DNA from: Candidatus Saccharimonadota bacterium
GTDB taxonomy: Archaea > Nanobdellota > Nanobdellia > Pacearchaeales > GW2011-AR1
NCBI GenBank assembly: GCA_026002795.1
Contig: BPGA01000001.1
Location: forward strand, 60,001 to 92,000
Length of the DNA: 32,000 nt
Reading direction: 5' to 3'
The notes below the pieces were generated by a model. That model was not told the DNA's origin and ran no database searches. It saw only the letters and a program-made list of their open reading frames with translations. Positions within the stretch are counted from its first letter, which is position 1, and each line of letters opens with the position of its first letter. Position numbers and translations under genes: made by a program. Shown piece by piece: positions 134 through 32,000 of the stretch.

Positions 134-204
134 GGGCCTGTAGTTTAACGGTAAAACGCATCCCTGGCTTGGATGAGATCCGCGTTCAATTCGCGGCAGG
201 TCCA
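134..204 (+). tRNA. tRNA-Ala (anticodon GGC)
   Basis: Hand-folded 71-nt cloverleaf. Acceptor GGGCCTG/CAGGTCC with G3:U70 (Ala identity pair). D arm GTTT-AACGGTA-AAAC. Anticodon stem CATCC/GGATG with loop CTGGCTT. T arm CCGCG-TTCAATT-CGCGG, discriminator A, no encoded CCA. Position 37 is a pyrimidine, which is atypical. Confidence 0.8.
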
Positions 205-7563: not shown

Positions 7564-7634
7564 GGGTGCGTAGTTTAATGGTAAAACAGGCGGCTCCAGA
7601 CCGCCAGACGGGGGTTCGATTCCCTCCGCGCCCA
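7564..7634 (+). tRNA. tRNA-Trp (anticodon CCA)
   Basis: Hand-folded 71-nt cloverleaf. Acceptor GGGTGCG/CGCGCCC (one G:U pair). D arm GTTT-AATGGTA-AAAC. Anticodon stem GGCGG/CCGCC with loop CTCCAGA. T arm GGGGG-TTCGATT-CCCTC, discriminator A, no encoded CCA. Confidence 0.85.
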
Positions 7635-19378: not shown

Positions 19379-20749
19379 TTAAGTAATTTGCAGATCCAAG
19401 CAAGCTCTATAGGTCCTGTATTTTTGTGTTGACTCGCAAGATGCTTGATTATTAATTGATCCACAGTTAGCTCCTGTGTCAATTACAAGAGAATCTCCAG
19501 TAAATTCTCCTGGATCACAGTTAGGAACAGAATATCCTGGATCATAACAAATAGAAAGTCCAGTATCCCATAAACAATAATTTTGTAAGTTTTGCTTAAC
19601 TTCTAAGTTAATTGTTGCTCTTTTGTTGTCTGTTCCGAATGTTCCACTTCTTATGTTGTTTCCTGATATGATTGCGTTACCAGCTACCTCAAGTTTTTCT
19701 CCAGGATTCGTCGTGCCGATGCCGACGTAGCCGGTAGTCTTAATTACAAATTCTGGAGAGGTAAAACTGGAGTCTGTTGTTTTTCCTGTTCCAATAGCAA
19801 AGTCGCTGGTGCTATATACTGTACCAATTGACCAAGGGTAGTTTCCTGATCTAATTAGATTTATATATTGGCCGCTAGCTGCTGGTTTGGTTATTACAAG
19901 GTCACCATTATAACCATTGTCTGGACTAGAACTACTTGAAATAGTTACGCGTCCTCGAACATCCAACTTCTGGCTTGGCCCCGTCGTGCCTATGCCGACG
20001 TTGCCCATTATATATGAATTTCCTGTTCCGTCTATTTGCAGAACGCTAGAGGTTTTTACAACGTTAGCAGTGTCAAGCAACCTTGCCCAGCCCCCCCAGG
20101 AACCAGTAGTTTGACTATATCTGTGCCAAATATTTCCACTTGAACCAAATGCTAATTGATGAACTCCCCCACCACTCCAGTCTGTTCCAGAACTCCATTG
20201 TCTATAAGTTAGAAGCCCGCTGTAAGTTCCTTCACCAGAAAGTCCAATCACACTATTATATTTAAACTCAGGTACCACCCCCATATAATACTGCTCCGGA
20301 TTATAGTTATTGTTTCTTGTATCAGAACTTCCAAGCACTCCCATTAATACATTTCCTGTTAAAGGAGGCGAACCTACTCTTAAATTCCCGCCTTGTACAT
20401 CCAACTTTGCTCCCGGCCCCGTCGTCCCGATGCCGACGTTGCCGCTAACAAATAAATTTTGTCCACATGTATCGCAACCTATACGTACTCTACCAGAAGA
20501 TGCTCCGAGTACTAAATCATTACTAGCGCCCCCCGAATTAGTTTCTGCATAAAGACCTACATAGTTCCATGCAGTTCCGATTCTTAATCTACCTCTGCCG
20601 CTACCTACATCCTCATTTCCTTGAACGTGCATATTGTTTTCAACCCAGACATCAGTAGCATATATATTTGCACCAGCACCATTTACAGCAAGTTTTACTT
20701 GTGGATTCGTCGTCCCGATGCCGACGTTGCCGGCTTCTCGAATAACCAT
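19379..20749 (-). CDS. 3'-terminal segment of fibre gene B: GNVGIGTT-repeat protein with a Cys-rich C-terminal domain
   Basis: 456-aa ORF with four anchor motifs (19710, 19983, 20421, 20709) spaced in multiples of 3. The C-terminal ~70 aa carry 8 Cys. The annotated Met is internal: the same frame continues upstream through two TGA stops. Confidence 0.7.
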   Translation of the reverse strand: MVIREAGNVGIGTTNPQVKLAVNGAGANIYATDVWVENNMHVQGNEDVGSGRGRLRIGTAWNYVGLYAETNSGGASNDLVLGASSGRVRIGCDTCGQNLFVSGNVGIGTTGPGAKLDVQGGNLRVGSPPLTGNVLMGVLGSSDTRNNNYNPEQYYMGVVPEFKYNSVIGLSGEGTYSGLLTYRQWSSGTDWSGGGVHQLAFGSSGNIWHRYSQTTGSWGGWARLLDTANVVKTSSVLQIDGTGNSYIMGNVGIGTTGPSQKLDVRGRVTISSSSSPDNGYNGDLVITKPAASGQYINLIRSGNYPWSIGTVYSTSDFAIGTGKTTDSSFTSPEFVIKTTGYVGIGTTNPGEKLEVAGNAIISGNNIRSGTFGTDNKRATINLEVKQNLQNYCLWDTGLSICYDPGYSVPNCDPGEFTGDSLVIDTGANCGSINNQASCESTQKYRTYRACLDLQIT

Positions 20750-21132
20750 TGCCGGAGATGTATAACCTCATGTTGGTCCATTATTTACCCTGAACATGTT
20801 ACCGCCATTATCGCCTAAAGCTGATTTGTGGTTGCGTCATGACACATATCCGAAATTGTCAGTATCTGCAGAAAAACTGAAAGCAGGAGCAGCAGCTGTT
20901 CCATTAGCAGCCTGAATTACTCTTCCAGATGTTATTACTGTAGTACCTCCTATTTGTAAATTACCTGAGACTAAATTTAATGAATCACCACTTGCTAAAT
21001 CTAATGCTATTTGCAGCTCCTCTAAACAACTGGTACATCTGGATTAAAGTAAAGATTAGCTGTTGTATTTATTGAACCAATAACATCTAATGTTTGTTGT
21101 GGTGTTGTCGTCCCAATCCGACGTTGCCAGAG
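20750..21132 (-). pseudogene. disrupted fibre-gene segment linking ORF 21133..23682 to ORF 19379..20749
   Basis: Homologous to intact sequence at 29875..30123, but with +1 insertions near 21006 and 21034. There is a 1-nt deletion inside the anchor at 21107..21128. In-frame TGA stops lie at 20837..20839 and 20768..20770. Confidence 0.7.
20856..21106 (-). repeat. module R1, copy a
   Basis: Near-identical to 29875..30123 apart from point differences and two +1 insertions. Encodes ...TPQQTLDV.GSINTTANLYFNPDVQLFRGAANRLDLASGDSLNLVSGNLQIGGTTVITSGR... Confidence 0.85.
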
Positions 21133-21342
21133 TTATCTAATACCAACACATTGCCCAACCCACTCGACCAGTAACAATAAGTCACCTCCTGTTCCTGCTC
21201 CATGAAGTGTCTCATTAGCAGAAATGATGTCCCAAGCCCTATCACCGCTTCTCTCTATTCTCAGTCTACCGGCATTTCCATTTGAGTCGCCGAAGAGGTG
21301 GAATTGTACTCCTGGATTCGTCGTCCCGATGCCGACGTTGCC
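21129..21342 (-). repeat. module R4, copy a (214 bp)
   Basis: Identical to 31328..31540 except for one extra t at 21172. Similarity stops exactly at the outer ends of the anchors. Confidence 0.9.
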
Positions 21343-23682
21343 GTTTTCGTCGACAGCGACTGCTAAAAGATTTCCTTGTGTATTAGTTAGCGCATTCTTT
21401 AAAGTTCCTGTAGCAACAAAAGATCCATCAATTAAAAATCCTCTAATTTCACAGTGGGGTTGGTTTGCTGTATCATCAAGCAAACATTCAACTGCTTTGT
21501 CTAAAGTTTCTGTGTTGTTTGCTCCTTCAAATATTGCTGCATATGGTCTTCTTGAACCGCTATTAGGTGATAATTGTGCTTTGTATAATCCAAGTCTTCC
21601 AAATGCAGAATCTAAATTAGTAGTAACTGCGCTCTCCCATGCGTCATAAGATGTTAAAATTCCAATTTGGTCTTTTCTTAGGTTGTTTAATGCTGTTGCT
21701 AAATTATCTGACTGTGTGGAGTTTCCATAAGTATCATAAGTGTTGTCGGATACTATAGTGTGGTTTGCTTTCCATATAATCGTTAACCTAAGACCTCTTC
21801 CAGAAGTGTCATAAACTGTTGTATTGCCTATCTTTAAAACTCTGTTTGCATTATTGTTTAATCCAGTACCTCTTATATAAATTGGAACTATTTTCGATAT
21901 AACATTTGTTCCTAGTGAATTAATTTCACATGTTCCATCAGCATTACAAGCTAATGCATTGCTTGCTGTTCCGCTTAATGTTCCATAAATAGTTCCAGTA
22001 GCTCTAATATCTCCAGCAACATCCAATTTATAAGCCGGACTTGCTGTCCCGATGCCGACGTTGCCGCTAGTTATTCTCATTCTTTCAACATTGTTTGTGT
22101 ATATAGCCAAATTACCATCAGATATCCACTGAAGTCCTGTATCGCTATCTCCAACGGCAAGAGATATTACTGGCGAACCACCCAAACCACTTCCACCTCT
22201 TACAAAGAGATTATTGTTGATATTAACATTTCCAGCAACTTGCAATTTTTCAGAAGGTGCTGTCGTCCCGATGCCGACGTTGCCATTCCAATTTTTTATA
22301 TAAATTGTTCCGTATTCGTTGTCATCTGGTGAGACTTCACGTATCTCAGGATAAGCAAACTGTACTTTATCACCTGCAACACCTGAGTAACAATAACCAA
22401 AACGAATGATCGCGTAAGCTGCATTACTTGGCATCCTCCAATCAGTTCCTATGGTTTTACTGGATTGAACATCCGAAATCCCATCCGCATTCGCATCAGT
22501 CACATATGAAGGATCAAGAAATCCATTCACTTTTCTCCAATCGCTTGAAGTAGTGGTAGTAGCCCAGAAATAAGGATTGTCCCAGGCTCCTGTAATGCGA
22601 TTATTGTTACTATCATAAACATAAAATCCAAGATACTTATAGCCAGATGTTCCAACTGTTTGCCTCATCCAAACACTGAATTCATATTTTTTATTTGGGT
22701 CTATTTTTACTCTTTTTTGATAATACGCCCATTGATAACAGCTTCCTGAATTTCCATTAGAGGTGCTTTCAAGAGCTTTAATCTGGGAACCATCAGTAAA
22801 AGTTGTTGTGACAGTAGTGACACTACCCCATGCATCAGAATCTCCCAAGTTAGTAGATGATTCTAGGAGGTTTGCACCGGCAATATTTTTAGCAGCTACA
22901 CCTCCAGCAATTTCAAGTTTGACATTTGGCGCTGTCGTCCCGATGCCGACGTTGCCGAGGCTTGTTATTACCATTCTATCGTTCCAACCATCAGTCCCCC
23001 TTGTCGTAAAGTACAAATCACCATAAGAATTTACGTGGTCTGTAATTTTGCCAGAAACATAACCTATAATTCCATTTGCCCCAGCAAAAGCAAGGGATGC
23101 GAAATTTCCAGCTGTACTATTAGTGTTTCTTAATTCAAGCGAGTTGCCGGTGCCTCCTGTGCCAGTTGATGTTTGCGGATTGATTATTACCAAACCTCTT
23201 GCAGAAGCACCACCGGTAGATATACTTGCTGCATAGCCTCCAGTATTTCCAGCTACTACCGTTAGCTTTTCTCCCGGCGCCGTCGTCCCGATGCCGACGT
23301 TGCCTGTTGTTGTCAAAACTAACCCTGTGCCGGTTTGCGGATTTAATCTGAAATTACCTGTATCGTCGACTCCGGTCCAAAATTGACGCGATGTAGAATC
23401 ATACCACTCAATATAATTCCACTTGCTTGTTGGAGAATCTGTCTGTCGCAATCTCAGTATGTTATCCGCTGTGGAAGATATTTCCAGCGGCGATCCGGGT
23501 CCCGTCGTCCCGATGCCGACGTTGCCGCCAAGATAGATATTTGTAGTCCCACCAGGGATTGCTATGAGATCAACACCATTTCTGTTTGTTATATCAACAT
23601 CGTAAGTCGTACCGTTACCAGCAATCACAAGACCAGAACCAGAATTGTAATACATCACTCCTCCACTAAAAGCCCCGGCCAA
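21133..23682 (-). CDS. fibre gene B central segment: GNVGIGTT-repeat protein with CBM-like and ILEI/GG-lectin-like inserts
   Basis: 849-aa ORF with 6 anchors in frame (21320, 22043, 22262, 22934, 23282, 23504). The apparent TTG start is internal. The C-terminus is cut by a +1 insertion (extra t at 21172 relative to the copy at 31328..31540). Confidence 0.75.
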   Translation of the reverse strand: MAGAFSGGVMYYNSGSGLVIAGNGTTYDVDITNRNGVDLIAIPGGTTNIYLGGNVGIGTTGPGSPLEISSTADNILRLRQTDSPTSKWNYIEWYDSTSRQFWTGVDDTGNFRLNPQTGTGLVLTTTGNVGIGTTAPGEKLTVVAGNTGGYAASISTGGASARGLVIINPQTSTGTGGTGNSLELRNTNSTAGNFASLAFAGANGIIGYVSGKITDHVNSYGDLYFTTRGTDGWNDRMVITSLGNVGIGTTAPNVKLEIAGGVAAKNIAGANLLESSTNLGDSDAWGSVTTVTTTFTDGSQIKALESTSNGNSGSCYQWAYYQKRVKIDPNKKYEFSVWMRQTVGTSGYKYLGFYVYDSNNNRITGAWDNPYFWATTTTSSDWRKVNGFLDPSYVTDANADGISDVQSSKTIGTDWRMPSNAAYAIIRFGYCYSGVAGDKVQFAYPEIREVSPDDNEYGTIYIKNWNGNVGIGTTAPSEKLQVAGNVNINNNLFVRGGSGLGGSPVISLAVGDSDTGLQWISDGNLAIYTNNVERMRITSGNVGIGTASPAYKLDVAGDIRATGTIYGTLSGTASNALACNADGTCEINSLGTNVISKIVPIYIRGTGLNNNANRVLKIGNTTVYDTSGRGLRLTIIWKANHTIVSDNTYDTYGNSTQSDNLATALNNLRKDQIGILTSYDAWESAVTTNLDSAFGRLGLYKAQLSPNSGSRRPYAAIFEGANNTETLDKAVECLLDDTANQPHCEIRGFLIDGSFVATGTLKNALTNTQGNLLAVAVDENGNVGIGTTNPGVQFHLFGDSNGNAGRLRIERSGDRAWDIISANETLHGAGTGGDLLLLVEWVGQCVGIR

Positions 23683-24197
23683 CCTTGAGACGATGAAATT
23701 TTTAATCTTCCCGCAACTTCAAGTTTTTCATTCGGACTCGTCGTTCCAATGCCGACGTTGCCTGAAGTATCTATAATCATTCGCGTATTTCCCGTTTGTC
23801 TAAATTCTATCGGTTCATTTGCATTATCTAAAGTTTCAATAATTAATTTAGATAAACCAGTTCCATCTCCTGTTGATTCAAAACGTATACTTCCAGCATC
23901 AGTATTTGCATCCCATCTTAATCCATAATTATTGTCTATATGTATGTTGCCCCCAGAAACATGTAATTTTCCCGCGGGTCCCGTCGTCCCGATGCCGACG
24001 TTGCCAGCGTTAGTAATTTGAAATGCGTTCCATCCTGCGCCACTTGTCCAGAAACCGACATTTGCGCCATTCTGCCCGACAAACATAGTCTTACCATTAT
24101 CTAACCATACACCACCGTCTCCACCAGCGTCACCTGTATGAATACGACCGGAAACTCGTAAATCAACAGTAGTGCCACCCCCGCCAACTACATTCAA
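23655..24197 (-). CDS. fibre gene B fragment (GNVGIGTT repeats)
   Basis: 180-aa ORF with anchors at 23740 and 23983. It overlaps both neighbouring fragments out of frame, which implies frameshifts near 23.68-23.74 kb and inside the anchor at 24214. Confidence 0.65.
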   Translation of the reverse strand: MNVVGGGGTTVDLRVSGRIHTGDAGGDGGVWLDNGKTMFVGQNGANVGFWTSGAGWNAFQITNAGNVGIGTTGPAGKLHVSGGNIHIDNNYGLRWDANTDAGSIRFESTGDGTGLSKLIIETLDNANEPIEFRQTGNTRMIIDTSGNVGIGTTSPNEKLEVAGRLKISSSQGWPGLLVEE

Positions 24198-24774
24198 CTT
24201 TGCTCCAGGTGTCGTCGTGCCGATGCCGACGTCTGCCTGTATTGCTATTCACAAAAAGAGTATTTGTGTCAACTGTGAAATTCTGTCCAACAACAACATT
24301 ATTATTAAATGTCTTATCTCCTGCAAAAATCTGCGTTCCTGTAGAAACAACTCCTGATTGTGTTGAAGAAGCATCTCTTATTGTAACATTACTTGCGCTT
24401 GTAATTCTTCCTTGAGCATCAACTGTGAATCTTCCCACTACAATATCTCCGCCATAAGTTCCTGCTGTTACTCCTGTGTTTGAAAGAGAGAAGGTTACAT
24501 TTCCGCTGCCAACAAGTCTATCTGTCAGTGTTCCTGAAATTGACATGCCTGTTCCTTGGACAATAGATCCTTTAACAAAACCAGCGCTTGTGTTAACTTC
24601 CTGAAGCTGACTTAATGTTACAGCATCTTGTGCAGATGTTCCATTTGCAAGATTAATGATTTTGTTGTTGTCCATGTTTATTGTTCCGTTGAAAACAGCA
24701 GAACCATTTACATGGAGTTTTTGTTGTGGTGTTGTTGTTCCAATGCCGACATAGTTTGTGTTGGTAATTGTCAA
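24163..24774 (-). CDS. fibre gene B fragment carrying tail-fibre-like module R2a
   Basis: 203-aa ORF. VTAGTYGGDIVVGRFTVDAQGRITSASNVTI resembles motifs I recall from phage tail-fibre proteins. It terminates because the anchor at 24214..24237 has a 1-nt insertion (GTCTGCC instead of GTTGCC). Confidence 0.65.
   Translation of the reverse strand: MTITNTNYVGIGTTTPQQKLHVNGSAVFNGTINMDNNKIINLANGTSAQDAVTLSQLQEVNTSAGFVKGSIVQGTGMSISGTLTDRLVGSGNVTFSLSNTGVTAGTYGGDIVVGRFTVDAQGRITSASNVTIRDASSTQSGVVSTGTQIFAGDKTFNNNVVVGQNFTVDTNTLFVNSNTGRRRHRHDDTWSKVECSWRGWHYC
24238..24756 (-). repeat. module R2, copy a (519 bp)
   Basis: Anchor-to-anchor segment. Aligns without indels to 25142..25660, with scattered substitutions and one ~30-nt divergent patch. 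Its last 140 nt (24617..24756) recur at 29659..29798. Confidence 0.9.
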
Positions 24775-25118
24775 GAATCGTTACTCTTGACTTGTTCCTC
24801 CTCGCTGGAGCAATACGACCAATATCAAAGAGATCGTTGATAGAATCAAGCGTCAAAACCCAGGATGGACCATTTATGTCTCGCCTGCGTCGGTACTTGA
24901 TGAGATGCACTAAAACTAGTTTCAAGTTTGCCCCTAAGGCCACATTCTCGTCTTTCCCCAGCTGCAAGCAATATGTCAGTACCGATTCGTCGTTGAAAGC
25001 CGATTAGTAGCCGAGGAGTATTGGAATCTAATTCGTCCGCCATCGTAGCTCCGTTGCACCTGAAGCGGTGGCTCCCCCAATGCACCCGCTTGAATATCGA
25101 GTTTTGCCTGCCGGTGTT
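24757..25118 (-). pseudogene. GC-rich degraded module between the two R2 copies
   Basis: No single long frame. Three overlapping ORFs in different frames (24653..24967, 24768..25007, 24846..25085). Removing one A from the AAAA run just downstream of anchor 25119 gives PAGKLDIQAGALGEPPLQVQRSYDGGRIRFQYSSATNRLSTTNRY*. Confidence 0.55.
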
Positions 25119-25579
25119 GTCGTCCCGATGCCGACTCTATCTGTATTGCTGTTCACAAAAAGCGTATTTGTGTCAACTGTGAAATTCTGTCCAACAACAA
25201 CACTATTATTAAATGTCTTAGCTCCTGCAAAAGTCTGCGTTCCTGTAGAAACAACTCCTGATTGTGTTGCAGAAGCATCTCTTATTGTAACATTACTTGC
25301 GCTTGTAATTCTTCCTTGATTATCAACTGTGAATCTTCCCACTACAATATCTCCGCCATAAGTTCCTGCTGTTACTCCTGTGTTTGAAAGAGAGAAAGTT
25401 ACATTTCCGCTGCCAACAAGTCTATCTGTCAGTGTTCCTGAAATTGACATGCCTGTTCCTTGGACAATAGATCCTTTAACAAAACCAGCGCTTGTGTTAA
25501 CTTCCTGAAGCTGACTTAATGTTACAGCATCCTGAGGGTTTGTTGCATTAGCAAGGTTGATGATTTTGTTATTGTCCAT
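25028..25579 (-). CDS. fibre gene B fragment carrying module R2b
   Basis: 183-aa ORF nearly identical to 24163..24774 over R2. The frame stays open upstream of the annotated Met through the anchor at 25638. Confidence 0.65.
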   Translation of the reverse strand: MDNNKIINLANATNPQDAVTLSQLQEVNTSAGFVKGSIVQGTGMSISGTLTDRLVGSGNVTFSLSNTGVTAGTYGGDIVVGRFTVDNQGRITSASNVTIRDASATQSGVVSTGTQTFAGAKTFNNSVVVGQNFTVDTNTLFVNSNTDRVGIGTTTPAGKTRYSSGCIGGATASGATELRWRTN

Positions 25580-25660
25580 GTTTATTGTTCCGTTGAAAAC
25601 AGCAGAACCATTTACATGGAGTTTTTGTTGTGGTGTTGTTGTTCCAATGCCGACGTTGCC
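25142..25660 (-). repeat. module R2, copy b (519 bp)
   Basis: See R2a. The two copies are separated by the GC-rich segment 24757..25118 plus the anchor at 25119. Confidence 0.9.
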
Positions 25661-25738
25661 GCCTGCATCTATTCTAAACCTTTCACATACCTGCTGTTGA
25701 ACAATGCAAGCTGGTTTGTTGTTGGCAAAAACATTCCG

Positions 25739-25989
25739 TTGTCAGTATCTGCAGAAAAACTGAAAGCAGGAGCAGTCGCTGTCTCCATTAGCAGCCTGAA
25801 TTCATTCTTCCAGATGTTATTACTGTAGTACCTCCTATTTGTAAATTACCTGAAACTAAATTTAATGAATCACCAGTTGCTAAATCTAATCTATTTGCAG
25901 CTCCTCTAAACAACTGTACATCTGGATTAAAGTAAAGATTAGCTGTTGTATTTATTGAACCTACAACATCTAATGTTTGTTGTGGTGTT
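25739..25989 (-). repeat. module R1, copy b
   Basis: Near-identical to 29875..30123 with two +1 insertions. The homology extends over 25521..26012 versus 29659..30146. Confidence 0.85.
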
Positions 25990-26144
25990 GCTGTTCCAAT
26001 GCCGACTCTGCCTGAAGTATCATTAACAAACAAATCATTAGTAACATTAAGACTTAGTCCTCCTGTTCCGCTACCTTGTATTTCAAGTTTTGCACTCGGA
26101 CTCGTCGTCCCGATGCCGACGTTGCCGGAAGTTGTTAATCGCAT
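25788..26144 (-). CDS. fibre gene B fragment (modules R3a + R1b)
   Basis: 118-aa ORF with anchors at 26104 and 25990. It is truncated by +1 insertions in R1b relative to R1c. Confidence 0.6.
   Translation of the reverse strand: MRLTTSGNVGIGTTSPSAKLEIQGSGTGGLSLNVTNDLFVNDTSGRVGIGTATPQQTLDVVGSINTTANLYFNPDVQLFRGAANRLDLATGDSLNLVSGNLQIGGTTVITSGRMNSGC
26013..26126 (-). repeat. module R3, copy a (114 bp)
   Basis: Roughly 90% identical by eye to 31214..31327. Encodes .P.AKLEIQGSGTGGLSLNVTNDLFVNDTSG. Confidence 0.85.
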
Positions 26145-26619
26145 AACCTCTGTTCCAATACTAGTGCTTGAGCCTATAGCAAACCTTAGATCGTAAGGAG
26201 AACCAGTGAAGCCCGCCCTCCAAACACCACTGGCTTCAGATCCTTGCGACCAAGTAAGCCATGCTTGGTCAGCATCTAAAGTTTTGTAATTTTGCTAGCA
26301 ATAGATCTCGAACTACCTGCAGCTTCGCCCCCGGATTCGTCGTCCCGATGCCGACGTTGCCTGATGTTGTCATTCTTATTATCTTCAACTACCGTTTCCA
26401 AATGCTACACTGATTGTTTGACCACATACCTATTAATAACCTGTTCGCAACGTCATTCCCGTCCCTCCTGAGATCCTTGAATATTAGCTATCGATTATAA
26501 GCATATCTGGCTCTCCCATCCGAGTGAAGTTATTATACCAGCCATTAGCAACCACTAAGCATGTCTTGTCTGCTCCAGATCTATAGCAGTGATTCGTTCA
26601 CTTATAATATTCTCAGAGT
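26145..26619 (-). pseudogene. decayed fibre-gene remnant between the LamG gene and fibre gene B
   Basis: Contains a perfect anchor (26339..26361) and coding-like patches (e.g. MTTSGNVGIGTTNPGAKLQVV), but stops in all frames. Confidence 0.55.
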
Positions 26620-28260
26620 CTACCGATTCTCCTGAGGCAAGAGGTCGAATTGTACTCCTGGCCCCGTCGTCCCGATGCCGACGTTGCCGCCTGTAGTTAT
26701 GTGAACTAAGTTGTTAATATGTGTATTAACTTGATTATCATTGTTGATATAGAGATCATTTCCTATAGCTTGGATTTCGTTAGCATCAAGATGAATACCA
26801 GCTGTGCCCCCAGAGTTTAAAATTTGCAATACTCCAGATCCTACACCTGTATTTACATCACTATCAGACCTAAGCCTCACATCTCCGACTACTTCTAATT
26901 TTTCTGTTGGATTCGTCGTTCCAATGCCAACGTTGCCGTTAAATATAACATCCCTATTTGTTTTTAAGTTCATTGCTTGGAACCATTGAGATCCATTATA
27001 ATAACTAAAAATTAGTTGATCAGGTTCGCCACTATATTGACTCCCTCTCTTTGTTATAACCCAAAAAGCATTTGAACCGGATTCTCTAAATTCCATTTGA
27101 GGAGAGCTTGGACCTGTTGGAGAAGTGCCTTCTATTTTAATAATAGAGCTAACAACATGTAACTTCGCCCCCGGCGTCGTCGTCCCGATGCCGACGTTGC
27201 CGCTTGTTCCGTTGGCAAAGAAAAATACAGAATTGGTTGTATTCACAAGTCTAAATATATCTGAAGTAATTGTGTTTTGTTGAATGCCTCTTAAATACTG
27301 GAGTTTTATTTCTTCTTCACTTAAAGCTCTATCATAAACTCTTACCTCATCAATTACTCCTGAAAATGGTCTAGGATCTGTTGTTATCCAAATTCCGATA
27401 TTTAAATTTCCTGTTCCAAAATTTAAGTTGCCGCCAGAAAGTGTTCTAATTCCATCAAGAATTCCATTAAGATAAATCCTCATTTCAAATGTTGAATTGT
27501 CATAAGTTGCGGCAATATGATACCATCTGTTATTTGATAGTGTTGTGTTTGCAGAAAGTGTTTGTTGTGTTCCGTTGTTTATACTTAAAAATAATTTGTT
27601 GTTAAAAATTCTGAAGTAATTTGATGAAGGAGACTCTCTTCCAAAGATCATCTGATCATTTGAGACTGCTGTTGGGTATATCCAAGCTTCCCAGGTTAAT
27701 GATTTTGCGTTGTTTAGTGCTTGAGATGTCGTTACACTGACATAGCTTCCGTTATTTGATGCTAGTCTTGTAAAGTTTAAAGCAATTCCCATTTTTCCTG
27801 ATGTAAATGTTGGATTAATGCAAGAAGTTCCTACACAAGTAAGAGTACCGTCTGTGCCAAATGGACCTCTGTCATAAGTTAAGCTACCAGAACCTTCTGA
27901 AAAAGGTAGATAAAGCATTAAACCATCTGGAGTTGCATATCCTGGCTGGAATATTGTACTATTTGTTATAATGGTGCCACTTACATTAAGTAAACCCTCA
28001 ATATTTGTATTCCCAGAGGCATTAATATCCTTAACAAAAAGCGCTGTAATTCTATTGGTTAAACTTCCAAGAAAACCAAAAAAGCCGTAATTTGATGTTG
28101 AAACATTGCCTAGTACAGTAAGATTTCCTGTGTCTCCATGAATTCTTACAAGATCTGTTCCAGTTTGATTCTGGAACCTATAATCTCCTGCTGAAACAAA
28201 GTTTATGCTAGTTGCAATTAATAAAATTATTAAAATTTCCGCTAAATAACCTCTTTTCAT
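26620..28260 (-). CDS. secreted LamG/concanavalin-A-like lectin domain protein with C-terminal GNVGIGTT repeats
   Basis: Signal peptide MKRGYLAEILIILLIATSINFVSA. LamG-like core (LYLPFSEGSG...ALNF...SLTWEAWIYPT...WYHIAATYD...IYLNGILDG...GVIDEVRVYDRALSEEEI). Three anchors (27179, 26915, 26666). It ends 12 codons into a module that is much longer in the other copies. Confidence 0.8.
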   Translation of the reverse strand: MKRGYLAEILIILLIATSINFVSAGDYRFQNQTGTDLVRIHGDTGNLTVLGNVSTSNYGFFGFLGSLTNRITALFVKDINASGNTNIEGLLNVSGTIITNSTIFQPGYATPDGLMLYLPFSEGSGSLTYDRGPFGTDGTLTCVGTSCINPTFTSGKMGIALNFTRLASNNGSYVSVTTSQALNNAKSLTWEAWIYPTAVSNDQMIFGRESPSSNYFRIFNNKLFLSINNGTQQTLSANTTLSNNRWYHIAATYDNSTFEMRIYLNGILDGIRTLSGGNLNFGTGNLNIGIWITTDPRPFSGVIDEVRVYDRALSEEEIKLQYLRGIQQNTITSDIFRLVNTTNSVFFFANGTSGNVGIGTTTPGAKLHVVSSIIKIEGTSPTGPSSPQMEFRESGSNAFWVITKRGSQYSGEPDQLIFSYYNGSQWFQAMNLKTNRDVIFNGNVGIGTTNPTEKLEVVGDVRLRSDSDVNTGVGSGVLQILNSGGTAGIHLDANEIQAIGNDLYINNDNQVNTHINNLVHITTGGNVGIGTTGPGVQFDLLPQENR

Positions 28261-28655
28261 TTTAATTTTTTCTCGACAAATTTAATTAACATGTCTATGA
28301 TTTTCTTAATGTCATTTTCGTTGTTTACCAAAAAATCCTCGGTAATTTTTTTGCCATAGTAGACAATATCATTCCTAAACTTCCTTAGATTATCAATAAG
28401 TTTTGCATAAGAATCATCAATTTCATAATTCTCAACAAAATAATCTAATAATTTCACATGACTAAGTGTTTTATATCCATCAGAATACATAACTGCTGTC
28501 AATAATTCTTTAATTATTTCATAGTATTCTTCAATAAACTTGTAAGGCTTATCTCTTGGAAGAATTTTTATGATTTCTAATCTATCCTTTGCCATTTTAA
28601 ATAAGTCTTTAGCTCTTTCTTTATCTTTTGAAATTTTGAATATCTCTTTCATCAC
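28257..28655 (-). CDS. HEPN-domain protein (putative toxin partner of the MNT)
   Basis: 132-aa all-helical ORF. LRKFRNDIVYYG sits where the HEPN R-x4-6-H motif belongs, but with Tyr in place of His. Its stop overlaps the LamG gene start (ATGA), and its start overlaps the MNT stop. Confidence 0.6.
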   Translation of the reverse strand: MMKEIFKISKDKERAKDLFKMAKDRLEIIKILPRDKPYKFIEEYYEIIKELLTAVMYSDGYKTLSHVKLLDYFVENYEIDDSYAKLIDNLRKFRNDIVYYGKKITEDFLVNNENDIKKIIDMLIKFVEKKLK

Positions 28656-29230
28656 AAACCTCCGTAAAGCACTAAACCATTCTTTATTTTTTTTTGAATA
28701 TTCTTATCTAGCTTAGAAAAATCATCTAGGATAATCACTCTAATTCTTCTTTTTAAAACACTTTCAAATTTGGAAAAATCAATCTCTTTCTTTATTTTAG
28801 AAACAACAAAAAAATCAATATCGCTTGATTCTACATCCTCTCCTCTTAAATAAGATCCAAATAAGATTATTGCTTTTGGATGAAGCTCATTAATAATTTT
28901 GTCTCTTAATTCCTTCAAAGAAAGAATGTTATAAGACATTTTTAACCATATAAAAGAGTCATTTTCTCTATTAGCGACATATCCGTCAAACGGCTTAGAT
29001 TTCCTCTTAATTATAAGCCCTTTCTTAGTTAGTTCTCTTATATAGTTTCTAACAGAAGGGTGTGCTAATTTTATCTTTTTACTTATCTCTTTTATGAAAT
29101 GTATTGTAGTTGGCTCTCTAAAGAACACCTCTAAAACCCGGATATAGCTACATTTAACCATATGGTATAATAATGTACCCTTTGGTATATAAATATTCCC
29201 TTTGGCTATTTTAACTTTATTGAATTCCAT
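28652..29230 (-). CDS. winged-HTH + minimal nucleotidyltransferase (MNT, NTP_transf_2-like)
   Basis: LFGSYLRGEDVESSDIDFFVV is the GS-x-n-DxD Pol-beta-type NTase signature. The N-terminal SVRNYIRELTKKGLIIKR looks like a wHTH. The start lies 1 nt after the stop of fibre gene A. Confidence 0.75.
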   Translation of the reverse strand: MEFNKVKIAKGNIYIPKGTLLYHMVKCSYIRVLEVFFREPTTIHFIKEISKKIKLAHPSVRNYIRELTKKGLIIKRKSKPFDGYVANRENDSFIWLKMSYNILSLKELRDKIINELHPKAIILFGSYLRGEDVESSDIDFFVVSKIKKEIDFSKFESVLKRRIRVIILDDFSKLDKNIQKKIKNGLVLYGGL

Positions 29231-29231
29231 T

Positions 29232-30632
29232 TTATATTCTAAATATCATATCACCTCCTTGAGTAAAAACACGGGCTGAACCTATGAACATTGTTTGAGT
29301 AACATTCGCATCACCAACAACATTTAGAGTGTTTTGTGGAGTGCTTGTGTTTATGCCAAGTCTTTCTGTTGTATTGTTCCAGAATAGTTTAGCATTATTT
29401 TGGCTTAAAACACCGTTAGCTCCTGCAAAAATTAAAGAGCCTTGATTAAAGCTTGAAAGTGTTAATCCTGCAAATGTTGGACTTGATGTTGTGTTTATGT
29501 CTTGTGGAAGGCTAAATGTCCATTGCCTATTTTGAGTTAAATCTTGAGGCCCTGTTGGTGTTACTGAAATTTGATTTGCTGTTCCAATCATCTCAAGTGT
29601 TCTTGATTGTGGAACTGCGTTTGTTGCAGTTGAGTTTACTGATTGCAATTGTGAAAGTGTTACAGCATCTTGTGCAGATGTTCCATTTGCAAGATTAATG
29701 ATTTTGTTGTTGTCCATGTTTATTGTTCCGTTGAAAACAGCAGAACCATTTACATGGAGTTTTTGTTGTGGTGTTGTTGTAGCAATGCCGACGTTGCCGC
29801 TACTGTCTATTCTTACTCTTTCTAAACCTGCTGTTGAAAATGCAAGCTGATTTGTTGTTGGTATGAACATTCCGTTGTCAGTATCTGCAGAAAAACTGAA
29901 AGCAGGAGCAGCAGCTGTTCCATTAGCAGCCTGAATTACTCTTCCAGATGTTATTACTGTAGTACCTCCTATTTGTAAATTACCTGAGACTAAATTTAAT
30001 GAATCACCGCTTGCTAAATCTAATCTATTTGCAGCTCCTCTAAACAACTGTACATCTGGATTAAAGTAAAGATTAGCTGTTGTATTTATTGAACCAACAA
30101 CATCTAATGTTTGTTGTGGTGTTGTTGTTCCAATGCCGACTCTGCCTGTGTTTCCTACAAAAGTTACAAACTCTGAATTAGAATCATTTAAAAAGGCTAA
30201 CCTATAATCTCCTGCACCAGAATTCCAGTTAACAATGTTCCTTAATTTTATATCTCTTGTTGCCTGAACAACTCCTCCAGCACTTACGTTGCTGTCATAT
30301 TTTCCTCTGAAAATCACATCAGGAGAGTCTGAACTTGAATTATCTGCTACATCGTTTGCAAGTGCTATAGCACTTCTTGAAAATAAGATATCACGCCACC
30401 TATAACTAGAATTTCCTAAATCAAAACTATTATCTAAATCAGGAATTAAGCTTCCATTAATTTCTAAGTTATTAACTTGAAGTGCAGAAATATTAACAAA
30501 ATAACCTGTTCTGAGCATAAATATCCCCACCAATAATTGAAAGCCCACCATTCTGCCAACCACCATTAAAATCAAAATTGCCATATACAGATGTGTTAAG
30601 TGGCATGAAAAAGCTAGAGTCATAACCATCAA
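29232..30632 (-). CDS. fibre gene A, 3' segment (modules R1c, R2-like N-part, unique tail-fibre-like C-terminus)
   Basis: 466-aa ORF. The first ~45 aa are out-of-frame read-through: the true frame joins ORF 30493..31089 via a 1-nt indel near 30509 (...GGDIYAQ|TGYFVNISALQVNNLEINGS). Anchors at 30124 and 29776. Confidence 0.7.
   Translation of the reverse strand: MMVMTLAFSCHLTHLYMAILILMVVGRMVGFQLLVGIFMLRTGYFVNISALQVNNLEINGSLIPDLDNSFDLGNSSYRWRDILFSRSAIALANDVADNSSSDSPDVIFRGKYDSNVSAGGVVQATRDIKLRNIVNWNSGAGDYRLAFLNDSNSEFVTFVGNTGRVGIGTTTPQQTLDVVGSINTTANLYFNPDVQLFRGAANRLDLASGDSLNLVSGNLQIGGTTVITSGRVIQAANGTAAAPAFSFSADTDNGMFIPTTNQLAFSTAGLERVRIDSSGNVGIATTTPQQKLHVNGSAVFNGTINMDNNKIINLANGTSAQDAVTLSQLQSVNSTATNAVPQSRTLEMIGTANQISVTPTGPQDLTQNRQWTFSLPQDINTTSSPTFAGLTLSSFNQGSLIFAGANGVLSQNNAKLFWNNTTERLGINTSTPQNTLNVVGDANVTQTMFIGSARVFTQGGDMIFRI
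29875..30123 (-). repeat. module R1, copy c (intact frame)
   Basis: Reference copy, in frame within ORF 29232..30632. Confidence 0.85.
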
Positions 30633-31089
30633 GTTTGTCTGCGTTTACATTAGTTAAGCCAGAACCATTTCCTGAAAAAGTTCCATAAATTGTTCCTGTT
30701 GCATTAATGTCACCTATAACATTCAACTTATTTGCAGGTGTTGTCGTTCCGATGCCGACGTTGCCTGTGTTTGAATTTACAAACAAAACATTAGAGCCTA
30801 CTGTGAGGTTGTTGTTAATAACTGCATTGTTTCTTATTGTTGTTGTTCCTGAAGAAGCTCCAAGTCTTAAGGTTGTTGCAGCTCCACCAATGTCAAGAGT
30901 TGTTGCAGTTGTATTTATTAAAGCGAAAGTTGTTGATGGTGTTGTTATATTTGAAATTATTGATGGACTTGTTAATGTTGGTGTGTTATTAAAAACAAGA
31001 GCTCCAGAACCTGTTTCATCTGTTACAGACAGAAGCAACATTAGCAGAAGAAATTGTAGAAACAAGATTTGAAGAAGAATCTGTTGCAA
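30493..31089 (-). CDS. fibre gene A, middle segment
   Basis: 198-aa ORF. Contains NVNADKLDGYDSSFF (a tail-fibre-like motif) and the anchor at 30743. It overlaps both neighbours out of frame. Confidence 0.65.
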   Translation of the reverse strand: MQQILLQILFLQFLLLMLLLSVTDETGSGALVFNNTPTLTSPSIISNITTPSTTFALINTTATTLDIGGAATTLRLGASSGTTTIRNNAVINNNLTVGSNVLFVNSNTGNVGIGTTTPANKLNVIGDINATGTIYGTFSGNGSGLTNVNADKLDGYDSSFFMPLNTSVYGNFDFNGGWQNGGLSIIGGDIYAQNRLFC

Positions 31090-32000
31090 CCAACCTATTT
31101 GCTGTTAATCCTGAAATTCTTGCGTTTGTTCCATAAATTGTTCCTGTTGCATTAATGTCACCAACAACATTCAACTTATTTGAAGGTGTTGTTGTTCCAA
31201 TACCAACATTACCTGAAGTGTCATTAACAAACAAATCATTAGTAACATTAAGACTTAGTCCTCCTGTTCCGCTACCTTGTATTTCAAGTTTTGCCCCCGG
31301 CGCCGTCGTTCCAATGCCGACGTTGCCAGAGTTATCTAATACCAACACATTGCCCAACCCACTCGACCAGAACAATAAGTCACCTCCTGTTCCTGCTCCA
31401 TGAAGTGTCTCATTAGCAGAAATGATGTCCCAAGCCCTATCACCGCTTCTCTCTATTCTCAGTCTACCGGCATTTCCATTTGAGTCGCCGAAGAGGTGGA
31501 ATTGTACTCCTGGATTCGTCGTCCCGATGCCGACGTTGCCAGTGCTGGTTATTGCCATCATGTCCCCTGGTCCCGGCGTCCATAACCTTGCTACATTCCC
31601 TATGCTATACCAGACATATTTTTGACCCGCTCCTGCACTAACATTTGGAGTAAATCCTCGGTCGTAGAACGATAGAGATGCGCCGGTTCCTGCGGATGAA
31701 ATTTCACCACCCTGATTGATATTTCCAGATATAATAGCTCCAGTGGCATCAGCAACGATAGCACCTACAACGTGAAGTTTAGTTTCAGGATTCGTCGTCC
31801 CGATGCCGACGTTGCCTGGTATTATCATTCCATCGCTTGGCGGCACAGTTCCTGCATATGAACCAACTGAGAGACCTCCTGTTGCTCCTGATACCGCATA
31901 AATACCTAACTTTCTGTTGCCGTTTATCCACACTGCGAGCGGATCGCCTGTATTTGCATTCTCAAAAACTAAATGGGCATTGTCTGTAGTGTCTTGGTCA
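31016..32000 (-). CDS. fibre gene A, 5'-ward segment (partial, runs off the window)
   Basis: The ORF-track entry 31016..31933 starts at an internal GTG. I translated 31934..31999 in the same frame (DQDTTDNAHLVFENANTGDPLA) and found no stop. Anchors at 31794, 31518, 31305, 31191. Confidence 0.7.
   Translation of the reverse strand, partial: DQDTTDNAHLVFENANTGDPLAVWINGNRKLGIYAVSGATGGLSVGSYAGTVPPSDGMIIPGNVGIGTTNPETKLHVVGAIVADATGAIISGNINQGGEISSAGTGASLSFYDRGFTPNVSAGAGQKYVWYSIGNVARLWTPGPGDMMAITSTGNVGIGTTNPGVQFHLFGDSNGNAGRLRIERSGDRAWDIISANETLHGAGTGGDLLFWSSGLGNVLVLDNSGNVGIGTTAPGAKLEIQGSGTGGLSLNVTNDLFVNDTSGNVGIGTTTPSNKLNVVGDINATGTIYGTNARISGLTANRLVATDSSSNLVSTISSANVASVCNR
31214..31327 (-). repeat. module R3, copy b (114 bp)
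   Basis: See R3a. The flanking modules differ between the two copies. Confidence 0.85.
31328..31540 (-). repeat. module R4, copy b (213 bp, intact frame)
   Basis: See R4a. Encodes NPGVQFHLFGDSNGNAGRLRIERSGDRAWDIISANETLHGAGTGGDLLFWSSGLGNVLVLDNS. Confidence 0.9.

What the first reader, a model, noticed from the sequence alone, without database searches (positions are those of the whole stretch)
20856..21342. Mosaic junctions fall exactly on the anchors: the same modules occur with different neighbours
At the anchor 21107..21128, module R1 (20856..21106, also at 29875..30123 and 25739..25989) abuts module R4 (21129..21342, also at 31328..31540). Elsewhere R1 is preceded on the coding strand by R3 (26013..26126) or by unique sequence (30147 onward). 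R4 is followed by R3 (31214..31327) instead of R1. R3 is followed by R1 in one place and by a TPSNKLNVVGDINATG module in another. In each case near-identity starts and stops at an anchor edge. For example, 21343 onward and 31541 onward diverge immediately after ...GACGTTGCC. This is the pattern of combinatorial module shuffling by recombination at a short conserved sequence, conceptually like cassette or segmental gene-conversion antigenic variation.
Basis: seen in the sequence. Interest (0 to 1): 0.85.

Follow-up and report, generated by a model that had tools for sequence, protein, structure and literature searches.

The report
Fibre-gene modules swapped at a DNA anchor
A tiny symbiotic archaeon carries broken-up genes for tail-fibre-like surface adhesins whose building blocks have been swapped, within the chromosome and with a small circular mobile element from the same hot spring, at one short DNA sequence that stays almost letter-perfect.

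Summary
The window comes from a PacBio HiFi assembly of a Pacearchaeota genome. Positions 19.4-32 kb (minus strand) encode tail-fibre-like surface fibres of the MAT/S74 type, with 30 same-strand anchors encoding GNVGIGTT. Five module families recur at 90-100% identity with different neighbours. 19 of 31 alignment breakpoints lie within 6 nt of an anchor, against 9% expected.

Two results go beyond the finding:
- A 19.3-kb circular element from the same metagenome (L003) carries an intact fibre gene. Two of its modules match chromosomal modules with no substitutions (489/489 and 206/206 nt). The junctions lie inside anchors, one mapped to the 8 nt GTCGGCAT.
- The anchor is fixed as DNA (GGCAACGTCGGCAT...) using codons that are rare elsewhere in these genes. 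Equally conserved residues just downstream use ordinary AT-rich codons. The same 24-mer occurs in many CPR, DPANN and viral fibre genes, independent of their ORFs' codon GC content.

Best reading: recent short-homology recombination or gene conversion at the anchors shuffles adhesin modules between paralogues and replicons. This resembles T-even tail-fibre shuffling at conserved motifs. The crossover point varies, so a site-specific recombinase is unlikely. A programmed, antigenic-variation-like cassette system is not shown. The chromosomal genes are heavily frameshifted. The public HiFi reads would decide.

The parts
19382..32000 (-). Whole array of tail-fibre-like (MAT-type) fibre gene pieces. 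It is interrupted only by a nucleotidyltransferase/HEPN-like pair at 28257-29230.
29235..31999 (-). Fibre gene 1. Its N-terminus lies outside the window. At least 2 frameshifts are needed to read it through.
26623..28260 (-). Fibre gene 2, first block: signal peptide, Laminin_G_3 domain and four anchors, then a stop.
19382..26622 (-). Rest of gene 2: intact blocks (168-861 aa open stretches) separated by heavily disrupted ~400-nt segments. At least 16 disruptions are needed for 28260->19385.
31793..31816 (-). anchor (canonical 24-mer)
31517..31540 (-). anchor (canonical); start of R4 copy 2
31304..31327 (-). anchor; R4|R3 junction
31190..31213 (-). anchor, the only copy written in genome-typical AT-rich codons (GGT AAT GTT GGT ATT GGA ACA ACA)
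30742..30765 (-). anchor
30123..30146 (-). anchor (GRVGIGTT); start of R1 copy 2
29775..29798 (-). anchor (GNVGIATT); start of the partial A module
27178..27201 (-). anchor (canonical)
26914..26937 (-). anchor
26665..26688 (-). anchor (canonical)
26338..26361 (-). anchor (canonical)
26103..26126 (-). anchor (canonical); start of R3 copy 1
25989..26012 (-). anchor (GRVGIGTA); R3|R1 junction
25637..25660 (-). anchor; start of module A copy 1
25118..25141 (-). anchor (DRVGIGTT); end of module A copy 1. Its 5' half is shared with L003.
24733..24756 (-). anchor (NYVGIGTT); start of module A copy 2
24213..24236 (-). anchor (ADVGIGTT); end of module A copy 2
23982..24005 (-). anchor (canonical)
23739..23762 (-). 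anchor; start of module B
23503..23526 (-). anchor (canonical); end of module B
23281..23304 (-). anchor (canonical)
22933..22956 (-). anchor
22261..22284 (-). anchor
22042..22065 (-). anchor (GNVGIGTA)
21319..21342 (-). anchor (canonical); start of R4 copy 1
21106..21128 (-). anchor carrying a 1-nt deletion; the R4|R1 junction named in the finding
20708..20731 (-). anchor (canonical); start of the 5'-truncated last block
20420..20443 (-). anchor (canonical)
19982..20005 (-). anchor
19709..19732 (-). anchor (GYVGIGTT)
21129..21318 (-). module R4 copy 1 (one inserted A causes a frameshift)
31328..31516 (-). module R4 copy 2 (intact)
20856..21105 (-). module R1 copy 1 (two inserted C cause frameshifts; truncated at a non-anchor point)
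25739..25988 (-). module R1 copy 3 (two inserted G)
29875..30122 (-). module R1 copy 2 (intact, inside the 466-aa ORF)
26013..26102 (-). module R3 copy 1
31214..31303 (-). module R3 copy 2
25142..25636 (-). module A copy 1. Its interior is 489/489 nt identical to L003 10787-11275.
24237..24732 (-). module A copy 2, about 96% identical to copy 1. It is itself mosaic: its first ~140 nt are closest to 29658-29792.
29658..29774 (-). partial module A (head only), ending at the DAVTLSQLQ motif
23527..23738 (-). module B. It is identical to two L003 copies except for one CCC->CC deletion, which causes the frameshift at ~23700.

Best explanation
The region is a set of paralogous, partly pseudogenised genes for trimeric tail-fibre-like surface adhesins (MAT / S74-related fibres) in a Pacearchaeota (DPANN) genome.

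Each structural unit of the fibre begins with the motif GNVGIGTT. In this lineage the motif is written as one nearly invariant DNA string (core GGCAACGTCGGCAT). The units between anchors are otherwise very diverged. The anchors are therefore the only stretches of near-identity, and recombination between units happens there. The events could be crossover, unequal crossover or short-tract gene conversion by the cell's general homologous-recombination machinery. They occur within a gene, between the chromosomal paralogues, and between the chromosome and a co-occurring 19.3-kb circular element (L003).

The result is in-frame swapping, duplication and loss of whole modules, that is, a mosaic adhesin repertoire.

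Shown:
- the modules, their different neighbours, and junctions lying inside anchors;
- exchange with a second replicon;
- DNA-level fixation of the anchor;
- purifying selection on the modules.

Inferred:
- the recombination pathway;
- that repeated conversion among anchors (perhaps GC-biased), together with gene flow, keeps them identical;
- that the biological pay-off is diversification of host or surface recognition;
- that the frameshifted pieces are by-products which can still donate sequence.
For: Family assignment:
- Homologues are 'tail fiber domain-containing' proteins of DPANN and CPR organisms, many with Peptidase_S74.
- The repeat unit aligns with Bdellovibrio MAT fibre structures 8OND, 8OL4 and 8OML (PMC10769870).

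Mosaic structure:
- Module map with differing neighbours.
- 19 of 31 breakpoints at anchors, against 9.3% expected.

Second replicon:
- L003 shares module A (489/489 nt) and module B (206/206 nt plus one indel). The rest of L003 shows no DNA match to the window.
- The L003 A|B junction is left parent up to ...GTCGGCAT and right parent from GTCGGCAT....
- The L003 pre|A junction switches in ACAACACC.
- L003 also carries a 582-nt tandem duplication of two modules, bounded by anchors.

DNA-level anchor:
- Anchor codons are GGC .96, AAC .96, GTC .93, GGC .97. In the rest of the same ORFs these codons run at 13%, 39%, 10% and 13%.
- The conserved downstream P/K/L/V/G positions use variable AT-rich codons.
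- The closest homologue, L001, and most AT-rich viral homologues do not have this. It is therefore not required by the protein.

Other points:
- dN/dS between module copies is 0.3-0.4.
- Similar anchor-bounded sharing is seen among viral contigs L073, L081 and L118.
- The assembly is from long reads.
Against: - 12 of 31 breakpoints are not at anchors.
- Every fibre gene seen in the window is disrupted: at least 16 and at least 2 frame disruptions. A current function for the chromosomal copies is therefore unproven.
- An 8-24-nt identity is short for classical RecA/RadA-type recombination.
- Unbiased concerted evolution within one genome does not explain why the same 24-mer is kept in genomes with ORF GC3 from 0.2 to 0.7. 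That part needs an extra assumption: sequence selection, biased conversion or continuing gene flow.
- The host of L003 is not established. It was binned with a Parcubacteria MAG. Its codon usage fits the archaeon (RSCU r = 0.91), but would also fit any AT-rich host.
Confidence: 0.7

Rival explanations
1. A programmed variation system. The chromosomal frameshifted, promoter-less pieces would be a silent cassette archive. They would donate modules by frequent segmental gene conversion at the anchors to an expressed full-length fibre gene. That gene could be the intact one on L003, or one elsewhere in the genome. This would parallel pilE/pilS, vlsE or msp2.
For: - There are many 5'-truncated or frame-broken pieces next to each other in a very small genome.
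- The only intact full-length gene seen, with a signal peptide and a C-terminal SDxxxK-like region, is on L003.
- It shares substitution-free modules with broken chromosomal copies.
- A cis element repeated at every cassette border is kept identical at the DNA level.
Against: - No evidence of within-population switching.
- No expression data.
- No dedicated recombination factor or special cis structure was found.
- Related DPANN loci L001 and L002 have intact giant fibre genes rather than archives.
- The two copies of the L003 gene in the concatemer contig differ by only one residue, with no structural variation.
- Only 32 kb of the 535-kb genome was seen.
Confidence: 0.15
2. A selection filter rather than a hotspot. 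Recombination or duplication breakpoints would arise anywhere. Only exchanges at unit borders give a foldable beta-helix fibre, so only those survive. The anchor would have no mechanistic role as DNA.
For: - The anchor is the structural unit border of the fibre.
- Modules evolved under purifying selection.
- The second class of breakpoints sits at another conserved protein motif.
Against: - It does not explain the fixation of rare GC-ending codons in the anchor, while neighbouring conserved residues use ordinary codons.
- Recombination needs some identity, and between diverged modules the anchors are the only identity available.
- Junction intervals as small as 8 nt fit homology-guided joining.
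Confidence: 0.08
3. Assembly or consensus artefact. The mosaic order and the frameshifts would come from collapsing a heterogeneous population during metaFlye assembly and polishing.
For: - Frameshifts are confined to the repeat region, and housekeeping ORFs have none.
- Some indels are in short homopolymers, such as CCC->CC and an extra A.
- The anchor at 21106-21128 looks like a hybrid carrying a 1-nt deletion.
Against: - Reads had N50 10.5 kb, while the repeats are only 0.1-0.55 kb.
- The same module borders are seen on an independent contig.
- Many disruptions are not typical HiFi errors: a 4-nt tandem duplication, non-homopolymer insertions and in-frame stops.
- Disruptions cluster, up to 5 in about 400 nt.
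Confidence: 0.04
4. Site-specific recombination. A dedicated recombinase, such as the invertase-type serine recombinase on L003, would cut and rejoin at the anchors. This would be shufflon-like, or like Gin/Min tail-fibre switching.
For: - L003 encodes a 183-aa serine recombinase matching the PHROG 'DNA invertase' family (E = 1e-53).
- The anchor is a fixed DNA sequence repeated at every border.
Against: - All 30 anchors are in one orientation and none is on the other strand. Site-specific action would delete segments rather than invert them.
- The crossover interval differs between junctions: GTCGGCAT, ACAACACC and ACGAC.
- Neither the window nor L001 or L002 has a linked recombinase.
- The anchor has no convincing dyad. 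The apparent hairpin covariation is matched by control position pairs.
Confidence: 0.03

Closest known systems
T-even phage long-tail-fibre and adhesin genes (gp37/gp38): recombinational shuffling at conserved motifs (Tetart et al. 1996, 1998, as cited in Trojet et al. 2011, PMC3157838)
   Same: - Variable specificity segments are separated by short, highly conserved motifs.
- Genetic exchanges that create chimeric adhesins occur within or near those motifs.
- The outcome is a modular, interchangeable receptor-binding protein.
   Different: - The protein family and motif differ (glycine-rich motifs and His boxes there, GNVGIGTT here).
- Here the host is a DPANN archaeon, with a chromosome-plus-episome pair rather than co-infecting phages.
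- Here the motif is fixed at synonymous sites against the local codon usage. I found no report of that for gp38.
- No experimental crosses exist here.
MAT (mosaic adhesive trimer) fibres of Bdellovibrio bacteriovorus (Caulton et al. 2024, PMC10769870; PDB 8OND, 8OL4, 8OML)
   Same: - Same repeat unit and motif (ERMRI.TSGNVGIGTxxPxxKLxV aligns with Bd2133).
- Signal-peptide-bearing, roughly 1000-aa surface fibres.
- They come in multigene families, with or without an S74 C-terminus.
- They are described there as mosaic and chimeric, and are used to recognise other cells.
   Different: - That work describes mosaicism at the level of protein domains, mainly the tips. It does not mention archaea, Patescibacteria or natural recombination between the genes.
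- Here the shuffled units are stalk repeats, the genes are largely broken, and a second replicon takes part.
Cassette gene-conversion antigenic variation (Neisseria pilE/pilS, Borrelia vlsE, Anaplasma msp2). This comparison rests on my own knowledge.
   Same: - Arrays of incomplete gene pieces sit next to each other.
- Short conserved sequences border the variable cassettes.
- Segmental transfer produces mosaics.
   Different: - No expression site, no unidirectionality and no within-population switching has been shown here.
- The organism is not a pathogen facing adaptive immunity.
Shufflons and invertase-driven tail-fibre switching (R64 Rci/sfx, Mu Gin, P1 Cin, p15B Min). This comparison rests on my own knowledge.
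   Same: Short repeated DNA sites inside fibre or pilus-tip genes allow alternative C-terminal segments. L003 carries an invertase-type recombinase.
   Different: Those sites are inverted repeats with a fixed crossover. Here all the sites are direct repeats, and the crossover position varies.

Membership tests
MAT / phage S74-type trimeric tail-fibre-like adhesins | Repeated beta-helix unit carrying the V-G-x-G/N...P...L loop motif | tested here: met
   The window ORF 21136-23718 and P0004 align over several repeat units with Bd2133 (8OND) and with 8OL4/8OML. E-values are 2.7e-8 to 4.8e-5.
MAT / phage S74-type trimeric tail-fibre-like adhesins | [quoted passage not shown] | tested here: inconclusive
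   Signal-peptide-like N-termini are seen by eye in ORF 26620-28260 and in P0004. In the window a Laminin_G_3 domain follows the signal peptide. The conserved MAT N-domain was not compared.
MAT / phage S74-type trimeric tail-fibre-like adhesins | C-terminal Peptidase_S74 chaperone domain (SDxxxK) or an alternative tip domain | tested here: not met
   No PF13884 hit in any window ORF, so the window copies are non-S74 or truncated. Many homologues do have PF13884. P0004 has an SDITTK string by eye, but no Pfam S74 hit is on record.
MAT / phage S74-type trimeric tail-fibre-like adhesins | Forms a surface-exposed trimeric fibre | not testable with these tools
   Needs protein work or at least multimer modelling. 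Not attempted.
Tail-fibre/adhesin shuffling at conserved motifs (T-even type) | Variable segments delimited by short conserved motifs | tested here: met
   30 anchors separate modules of 114-723 nt, most of them unrelated at the DNA level.
Tail-fibre/adhesin shuffling at conserved motifs (T-even type) | Recombination junctions lie within or next to the motifs | tested here: met
   19 of 31 breakpoints lie within 6 nt of an anchor, against 9.3% expected.
Tail-fibre/adhesin shuffling at conserved motifs (T-even type) | Chimeras change receptor or host specificity | not testable with these tools
   The organism is uncultivated and no binding data exist.
Cassette gene-conversion antigenic variation | One expressed locus plus promoter-less silent cassettes | tested here: inconclusive
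   Frame-broken and 5'-truncated pieces are present. No intact recipient gene is in the window. The only intact gene seen is on L003. Archaeal promoters were not assessed.
Cassette gene-conversion antigenic variation | Frequent, unidirectional segmental conversion within a clonal population | not testable with these tools
   Needs the raw reads (DRA011957) or a time series.
Shufflon / invertase-driven fibre switching | Recombination sites in inverted orientation flanking invertible segments | tested here: not met
   All anchors are on the minus strand and none is in the opposite orientation.
Shufflon / invertase-driven fibre switching | Fixed crossover position within the site | tested here: not met
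   Junction intervals differ: GTCGGCAT, ACAACACC, ACGAC.
Shufflon / invertase-driven fibre switching | Dedicated recombinase linked to the variable gene | tested here: inconclusive
   None among the window ORFs scanned. L003 has an invertase-type serine recombinase about 9 kb from its fibre gene.

The most novel reading that the evidence does not exclude
The 24-nt anchor may be a DNA-level 'universal linker' for a gene pool that crosses domains. Fibre modules flanked by the same nucleotide string could then be exchanged among chromosomes, plasmids and viruses of DPANN archaea, CPR bacteria and predatory bacteria. The string would be kept identical at synonymous sites because it is the recombination substrate.

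In this archaeon the chromosome would hold a silent archive of modules. That archive would feed an expressed fibre gene on a small circular element. This would be a cassette-type surface-variation system in an episymbiotic archaeon.
Probability: 0.2. Interest if true: 0.85.

Novelty: new variant of a known kind. Interest (0 to 1): 0.62.

Why it matters
DPANN archaea and CPR bacteria live attached to other cells, and how they recognise and switch hosts is largely unknown.

This locus shows that their tail-fibre-like adhesins are built from interchangeable units. It also shows that whole units moved very recently, with no substitutions over about 700 nt, between a 535-kb archaeal chromosome and a small mobile element. 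The crossover is resolved to within 8 nt.

The anchor is a rare case where a coding motif is conserved as DNA and not only as protein. In loci that carry it, its GC-rich spelling does not follow the host ORF's codon usage (GC3 0.2-0.7). That points to recombination itself, or to an unknown sequence-level constraint, shaping the gene family.

The public HiFi reads make the question 'ongoing switching or fossil record?' directly testable.

Tried and rejected
1. Short-read assembly chimera. Rejected: the source MAG (KatS3mg001) comes from HiFi reads assembled with metaFlye.
2. The anchor is simply protein conservation. Rejected by codon analysis with an internal control and by homologues that write the motif in other codons.
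3. The GC-rich anchor spelling is universal to the family. Rejected. In an unbiased viral sample, anchor GC3 tracks ORF GC3. None of 222 anchors is exactly canonical, and 17 are within 2 mismatches. It is a sub-class feature, but a coherent one.
4. Rare-codon translational pause. Unlikely: anchors are never AT-enriched in GC-rich ORFs.
5. Conserved hairpin (CGTCG...CGACG; the AT-type anchor keeps TGTTG...CAACA). Rejected. The excess of complementary third positions is matched by control pairs of non-pairing positions.
6. Integrated copy of L003 in the window. Rejected: only the fibre-gene modules match.
7. Structural variation between the two L003 unit copies. None: 1004 of 1005 residues are identical.
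8. Strain comparison. Exact-protein look-ups for window ORFs and P0001 found nothing. Two metagenome scans found no close relatives.
9. Classifying L003 as virus or plasmid. Unresolved. Found: tail-fibre PHROG hits for the fibre gene only, an invertase-type recombinase, and a DUF3631-like protein with more than 1000 homologues on small contigs. One IMG/VR relative carries a ParB-like gene.
10. Rfam. Only two tRNAs in the window.
11. Literature search for the motif string. No hits.
Full report
**Source and setting.**
- ORF 21133-23682 is 100% identical to protein KatS3mg001_094 of a 'Candidatus Pacearchaeota archaeon' MAG, on a 535,452-bp contig.
- The matching study describes MAG mg001 (Nanoarchaeota in GTDB terms) from Katase hot-spring sediment. 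It was sequenced as PacBio HiFi reads (N50 10.5 kb, longest 43 kb) and assembled with metaFlye 2.8.3 (PMC9671151).
- The first 19 kb of the window holds ordinary archaeal housekeeping genes at 24-30% G+C. These include an RNA polymerase subunit, ribosomal protein S24e, an Lhr-type helicase and a ribonucleotide reductase. There are also two tRNAs.
- From 19.4 kb to the window end everything is on the minus strand, and G+C rises to 36-45%.

**What the region encodes.**
- The open stretches carry the motif GNVGIGTT every 114-723 nt.
- Homologues are large proteins of DPANN archaea, CPR bacteria, other bacteria and metagenomic contigs. Many are named 'tail fiber domain-containing protein' and carry Peptidase_S74.
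- The repeat unit (…ERMRITSSGNVGIGTxxPxxKLxV…) aligns with solved fibre structures from Bdellovibrio bacteriovorus: Bd2133 (8OND), 8OL4 and 8OML.
[quoted passage not shown] MAT proteins are surface fibres related to phage tail fibres that recognise prey (PMC10769870).
- Pfam adds a Laminin_G_3 domain after a signal peptide in ORF 26620-28260. It also finds YadA_stalk-like necks and two sub-threshold hits, CBM_4_9 and ILEI.
- A nucleotidyltransferase/HEPN-like pair (28257-29230) splits the array into two genes.

**Check of the observation.**
- Alignments show R4 identity beginning at the first base of the anchor, with unrelated sequence upstream, and ending inside the next anchor.
- R1 follows R4, R3 or another module in its three copies.
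- I cut the array at the anchors and compared module interiors with the first 30 nt removed. This gives five families:
  - R1: three copies.
  - R3: two copies.
  - R4: two copies.
  - A: two full copies and one partial copy.
  - B: one copy in the window.
- Each family has different neighbours in each place.
- 19 of 31 distinct alignment endpoints lie within 6 nt of an anchor, against 9.3% expected. With a 20-nt tolerance the figures are 19 of 31 against 16.5%.
- The exceptions are real:
  - a second breakpoint cluster at the conserved DAVTLSQLQ motif;
  - the distal end of R1.
- The 14-mer core occurs 21 times exactly and twice with one mismatch, all on one strand, with none expected by chance.

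**A second replicon.**
- Locus L003 was fetched because its 1005-aa protein P0004 is a homologue. It is part of a 38.5-kb contig from the same metagenome, binned with a Parcubacteria MAG.
- The contig is two copies of a 19,261-bp unit, so it represents a circular element.
- It shares near-identical DNA with the window only inside its fibre gene.
  - L003 10760-11298 matches window 25657-25119 at 99.1%. The 489-nt interior is identical, and the mismatches lie in the anchors.
  - L003 11282-11532 and 11856-12114 match window 23756-23507 at 99.6%. The 206-nt interior is identical apart from one deleted C in a CCC run in the window.
- In L003, modules A and B are adjacent. In the window they lie 1.4 kb apart with other neighbours.
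- A three-way alignment shows the L003 A|B junction as a clean recombinant. It follows the window's A-end through …GATAGAGTCGGCAT and the window's B-start from GTCGGCATTGGAACG…. The only stretch common to all three is GTCGGCAT.
- At the pre|A junction L003 follows window gene 1 (30815-30766) on the left and module A on the right. The switch is inside ACAACACC, at the 3' edge of the anchor.
- The R4|R1 junction in the window switches between ACGAC and ACACC. The crossover point therefore varies within the anchor.
- L003 also has a 582-nt tandem duplication of two modules, bounded by anchors.
- A few viral contigs (L073, L081, L118) share 300-390-nt segments at 90-99% identity with ends at anchors.

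**The anchor as DNA.**
- In 13 of 29 in-frame copies the eight codons are exactly GGC AAC GTC GGC ATC GGG ACG ACG. Most other copies differ at one to four positions.
- In the non-anchor parts of the same ORFs these codons are rare: GGC 13%, AAC 39%, GTC 10%, ATC 12%, GGG 9%, ACG 4%. GC3 there is 0.27, and 0.16 in housekeeping genes.
- An internal control is decisive. The proline, lysine, leucine, valine and glycine that follow the anchor are conserved in 72-100% of copies, yet they use varied, mostly AT-ending codons (GC3 0.10-0.52). The first four anchor codons are 93-97% fixed.
- One copy (31190-31213) uses genome-typical codons throughout, so the protein does not need the GC-rich spelling.
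- The closest homologue (L001) varies its codons. L002 (another Nanoarchaeota MAG, 27% protein identity) and L003 use the canonical string.
- In an unbiased sample of 222 viral anchors, anchor GC3 tracks ORF GC3. None is exactly canonical, and 17 are within two mismatches.
The genome hits are mostly Patescibacteria and DPANN, with some Bdellovibrionales, Elusimicrobia, Omnitrophica and others.
- In those genome loci the other anchors keep GC3 at 0.72-0.82 whether the surrounding ORF has GC3 of 0.2 or 0.7.
- There is thus a coherent class of fibre genes in which the anchor's nucleotide sequence is decoupled from host codon usage. I cannot fully explain this. Conversion among anchors (possibly GC-biased), continuing gene flow through mobile elements, or direct selection on the sequence are all open.

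**State of the genes.**
- Reading 28260→19385 as one frame needs at least 16 disruptions, and gene 1 needs at least two. The two longest housekeeping ORFs need none.
- Disruptions cluster at 26715-26296, 25138-24783 and 21135-20770.
- Some are short-homopolymer indels: CCC→CC and an extra A.
- Others are not typical HiFi errors: a 4-nt TCTG tandem duplication, non-homopolymer single-base insertions in R1 and R4 copies, and in-frame stops.
- I read most of them as real decay, but this needs the reads.
- Differences between module copies give dN/dS of 0.3-0.4. The modules therefore evolved mainly as functional coding sequence.
- Fibre genes on both replicons have GC3 of 0.27, against a background of 0.16-0.17. 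L003's other genes match the archaeon's codon usage (RSCU r = 0.91).

**Mechanism.**
- The evidence fits homology-guided recombination or gene conversion that starts or resolves in the anchors. They are the only near-identical stretches between otherwise diverged units.
- Support comes from the variable crossover position, the uniform orientation of all anchors and the lack of a linked recombinase in the window, L001 or L002. All three argue against a site-specific system, even though L003 carries an invertase-type serine recombinase.
- A hairpin in the anchor looked possible, with weak covariation. Control position pairs show the same excess, so I dropped it.
- A programmed cassette system remains possible but is not shown.

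**Comparison with known systems.**
- The protein family is known (MAT / S74 tail-fibre-like).
- Three things appear new:
  - the setting, a DPANN chromosome exchanging with a small circular element;
  - the resolution, with substitution-free modules and an 8-nt junction;
  - the nucleotide-level fixation of the linker across very different genomes.
- I found no paper containing the motif string.
- The Bdellovibrio MAT paper contains no mention of archaea or Patescibacteria, and mentions recombination only as a lab method.

**Limits.**
- Only 32 kb of the genome was available.
- No close strain relatives were found.
- The host and nature of L003 (virus or plasmid) are unresolved.
- Breakpoint statistics treat related endpoints as independent.
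- No read-level data could be examined.

Noticed in passing
L003 (NCBI BPJI01000003.1, GCA_026004535.1) 1-23018: A 38.5-kb contig binned as Parcubacteria is two copies of a 19,261-bp unit, so it represents a circular element. It carries an invertase-type serine recombinase, a DUF3631-like 418-aa protein with more than 1000 homologues on small contigs, and an intact 1005-aa fibre gene with a signal peptide. Its codon usage matches the Pacearchaeota window, so the binning may be wrong.
   Followed up: partly
window 28257-29230 (-); L001 14124-15597; L002 4614-6369: A nucleotidyltransferase plus a HEPN-like small ORF sits between the two fibre genes. Nucleotidyltransferase, AbiEi and AbiEii genes also flank the fibre genes in the two other DPANN loci. 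This looks like a recurrent neighbourhood.
   Followed up: no
window ~31025-31035 (-): The frameshift in fibre gene 1 is a 4-nt tandem duplication (TCTGTCTG). Removing one TCTG restores ...SSANVASVTDETGSGALVF...
   Followed up: yes
window ~23690-23700 (-): The frameshift that separates ORF 23655-24197 from the 849-aa ORF is a single C missing from a CCC run, relative to the otherwise identical L003 module. It is either a real mutation or a homopolymer consensus error.
   Followed up: partly
window 24616-24637, 25531-25541, 29658-29679: A second class of recombination breakpoints lies at the conserved DAVTLSQLQ (YadA-stalk-like) motif. Module A copy 2 is itself a mosaic: its head is 98.5% identical to 29658-29792 and its body is closest to copy 1 and L003.
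   Followed up: partly
window 31190-31213 (-): The single anchor written in AT-rich codons keeps the same potential 5-bp stem (TGTTG...CAACA against CGTCG...CGACG). Family-wide statistics do not support a conserved hairpin.
   Followed up: yes
genome loci L239-L358; viral loci L004-L123: The exact 24-nt anchor occurs in fibre genes of many Patescibacteria, DPANN, Bdellovibrionales, Elusimicrobia, Omnitrophica and viral contigs. Anchor GC3 there stays near 0.75 whatever the ORF GC3. This cross-domain synonymous-site conservation is unexplained.
   Followed up: partly
window 17818-19179 (-): A 453-aa ORF lies directly downstream of the array. It has a lipoprotein-like N-terminus (LVLGC), no Pfam hit and no relatives found in the metagenome scan.
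   Followed up: partly
window 21133-23682 (-), residues ~303-409 and ~641-717: The 849-aa ORF carries weak, sub-threshold matches to a carbohydrate-binding module (CBM_4_9) and to an ILEI-like domain. Both are inserted between fibre repeats and could be ligand-binding inserts.
   Followed up: no
window 134-204 and 7564-7634 (+): tRNA-Ala(GGC) and tRNA-Trp(CCA). Each prediction is 71 nt long.
   Followed up: no
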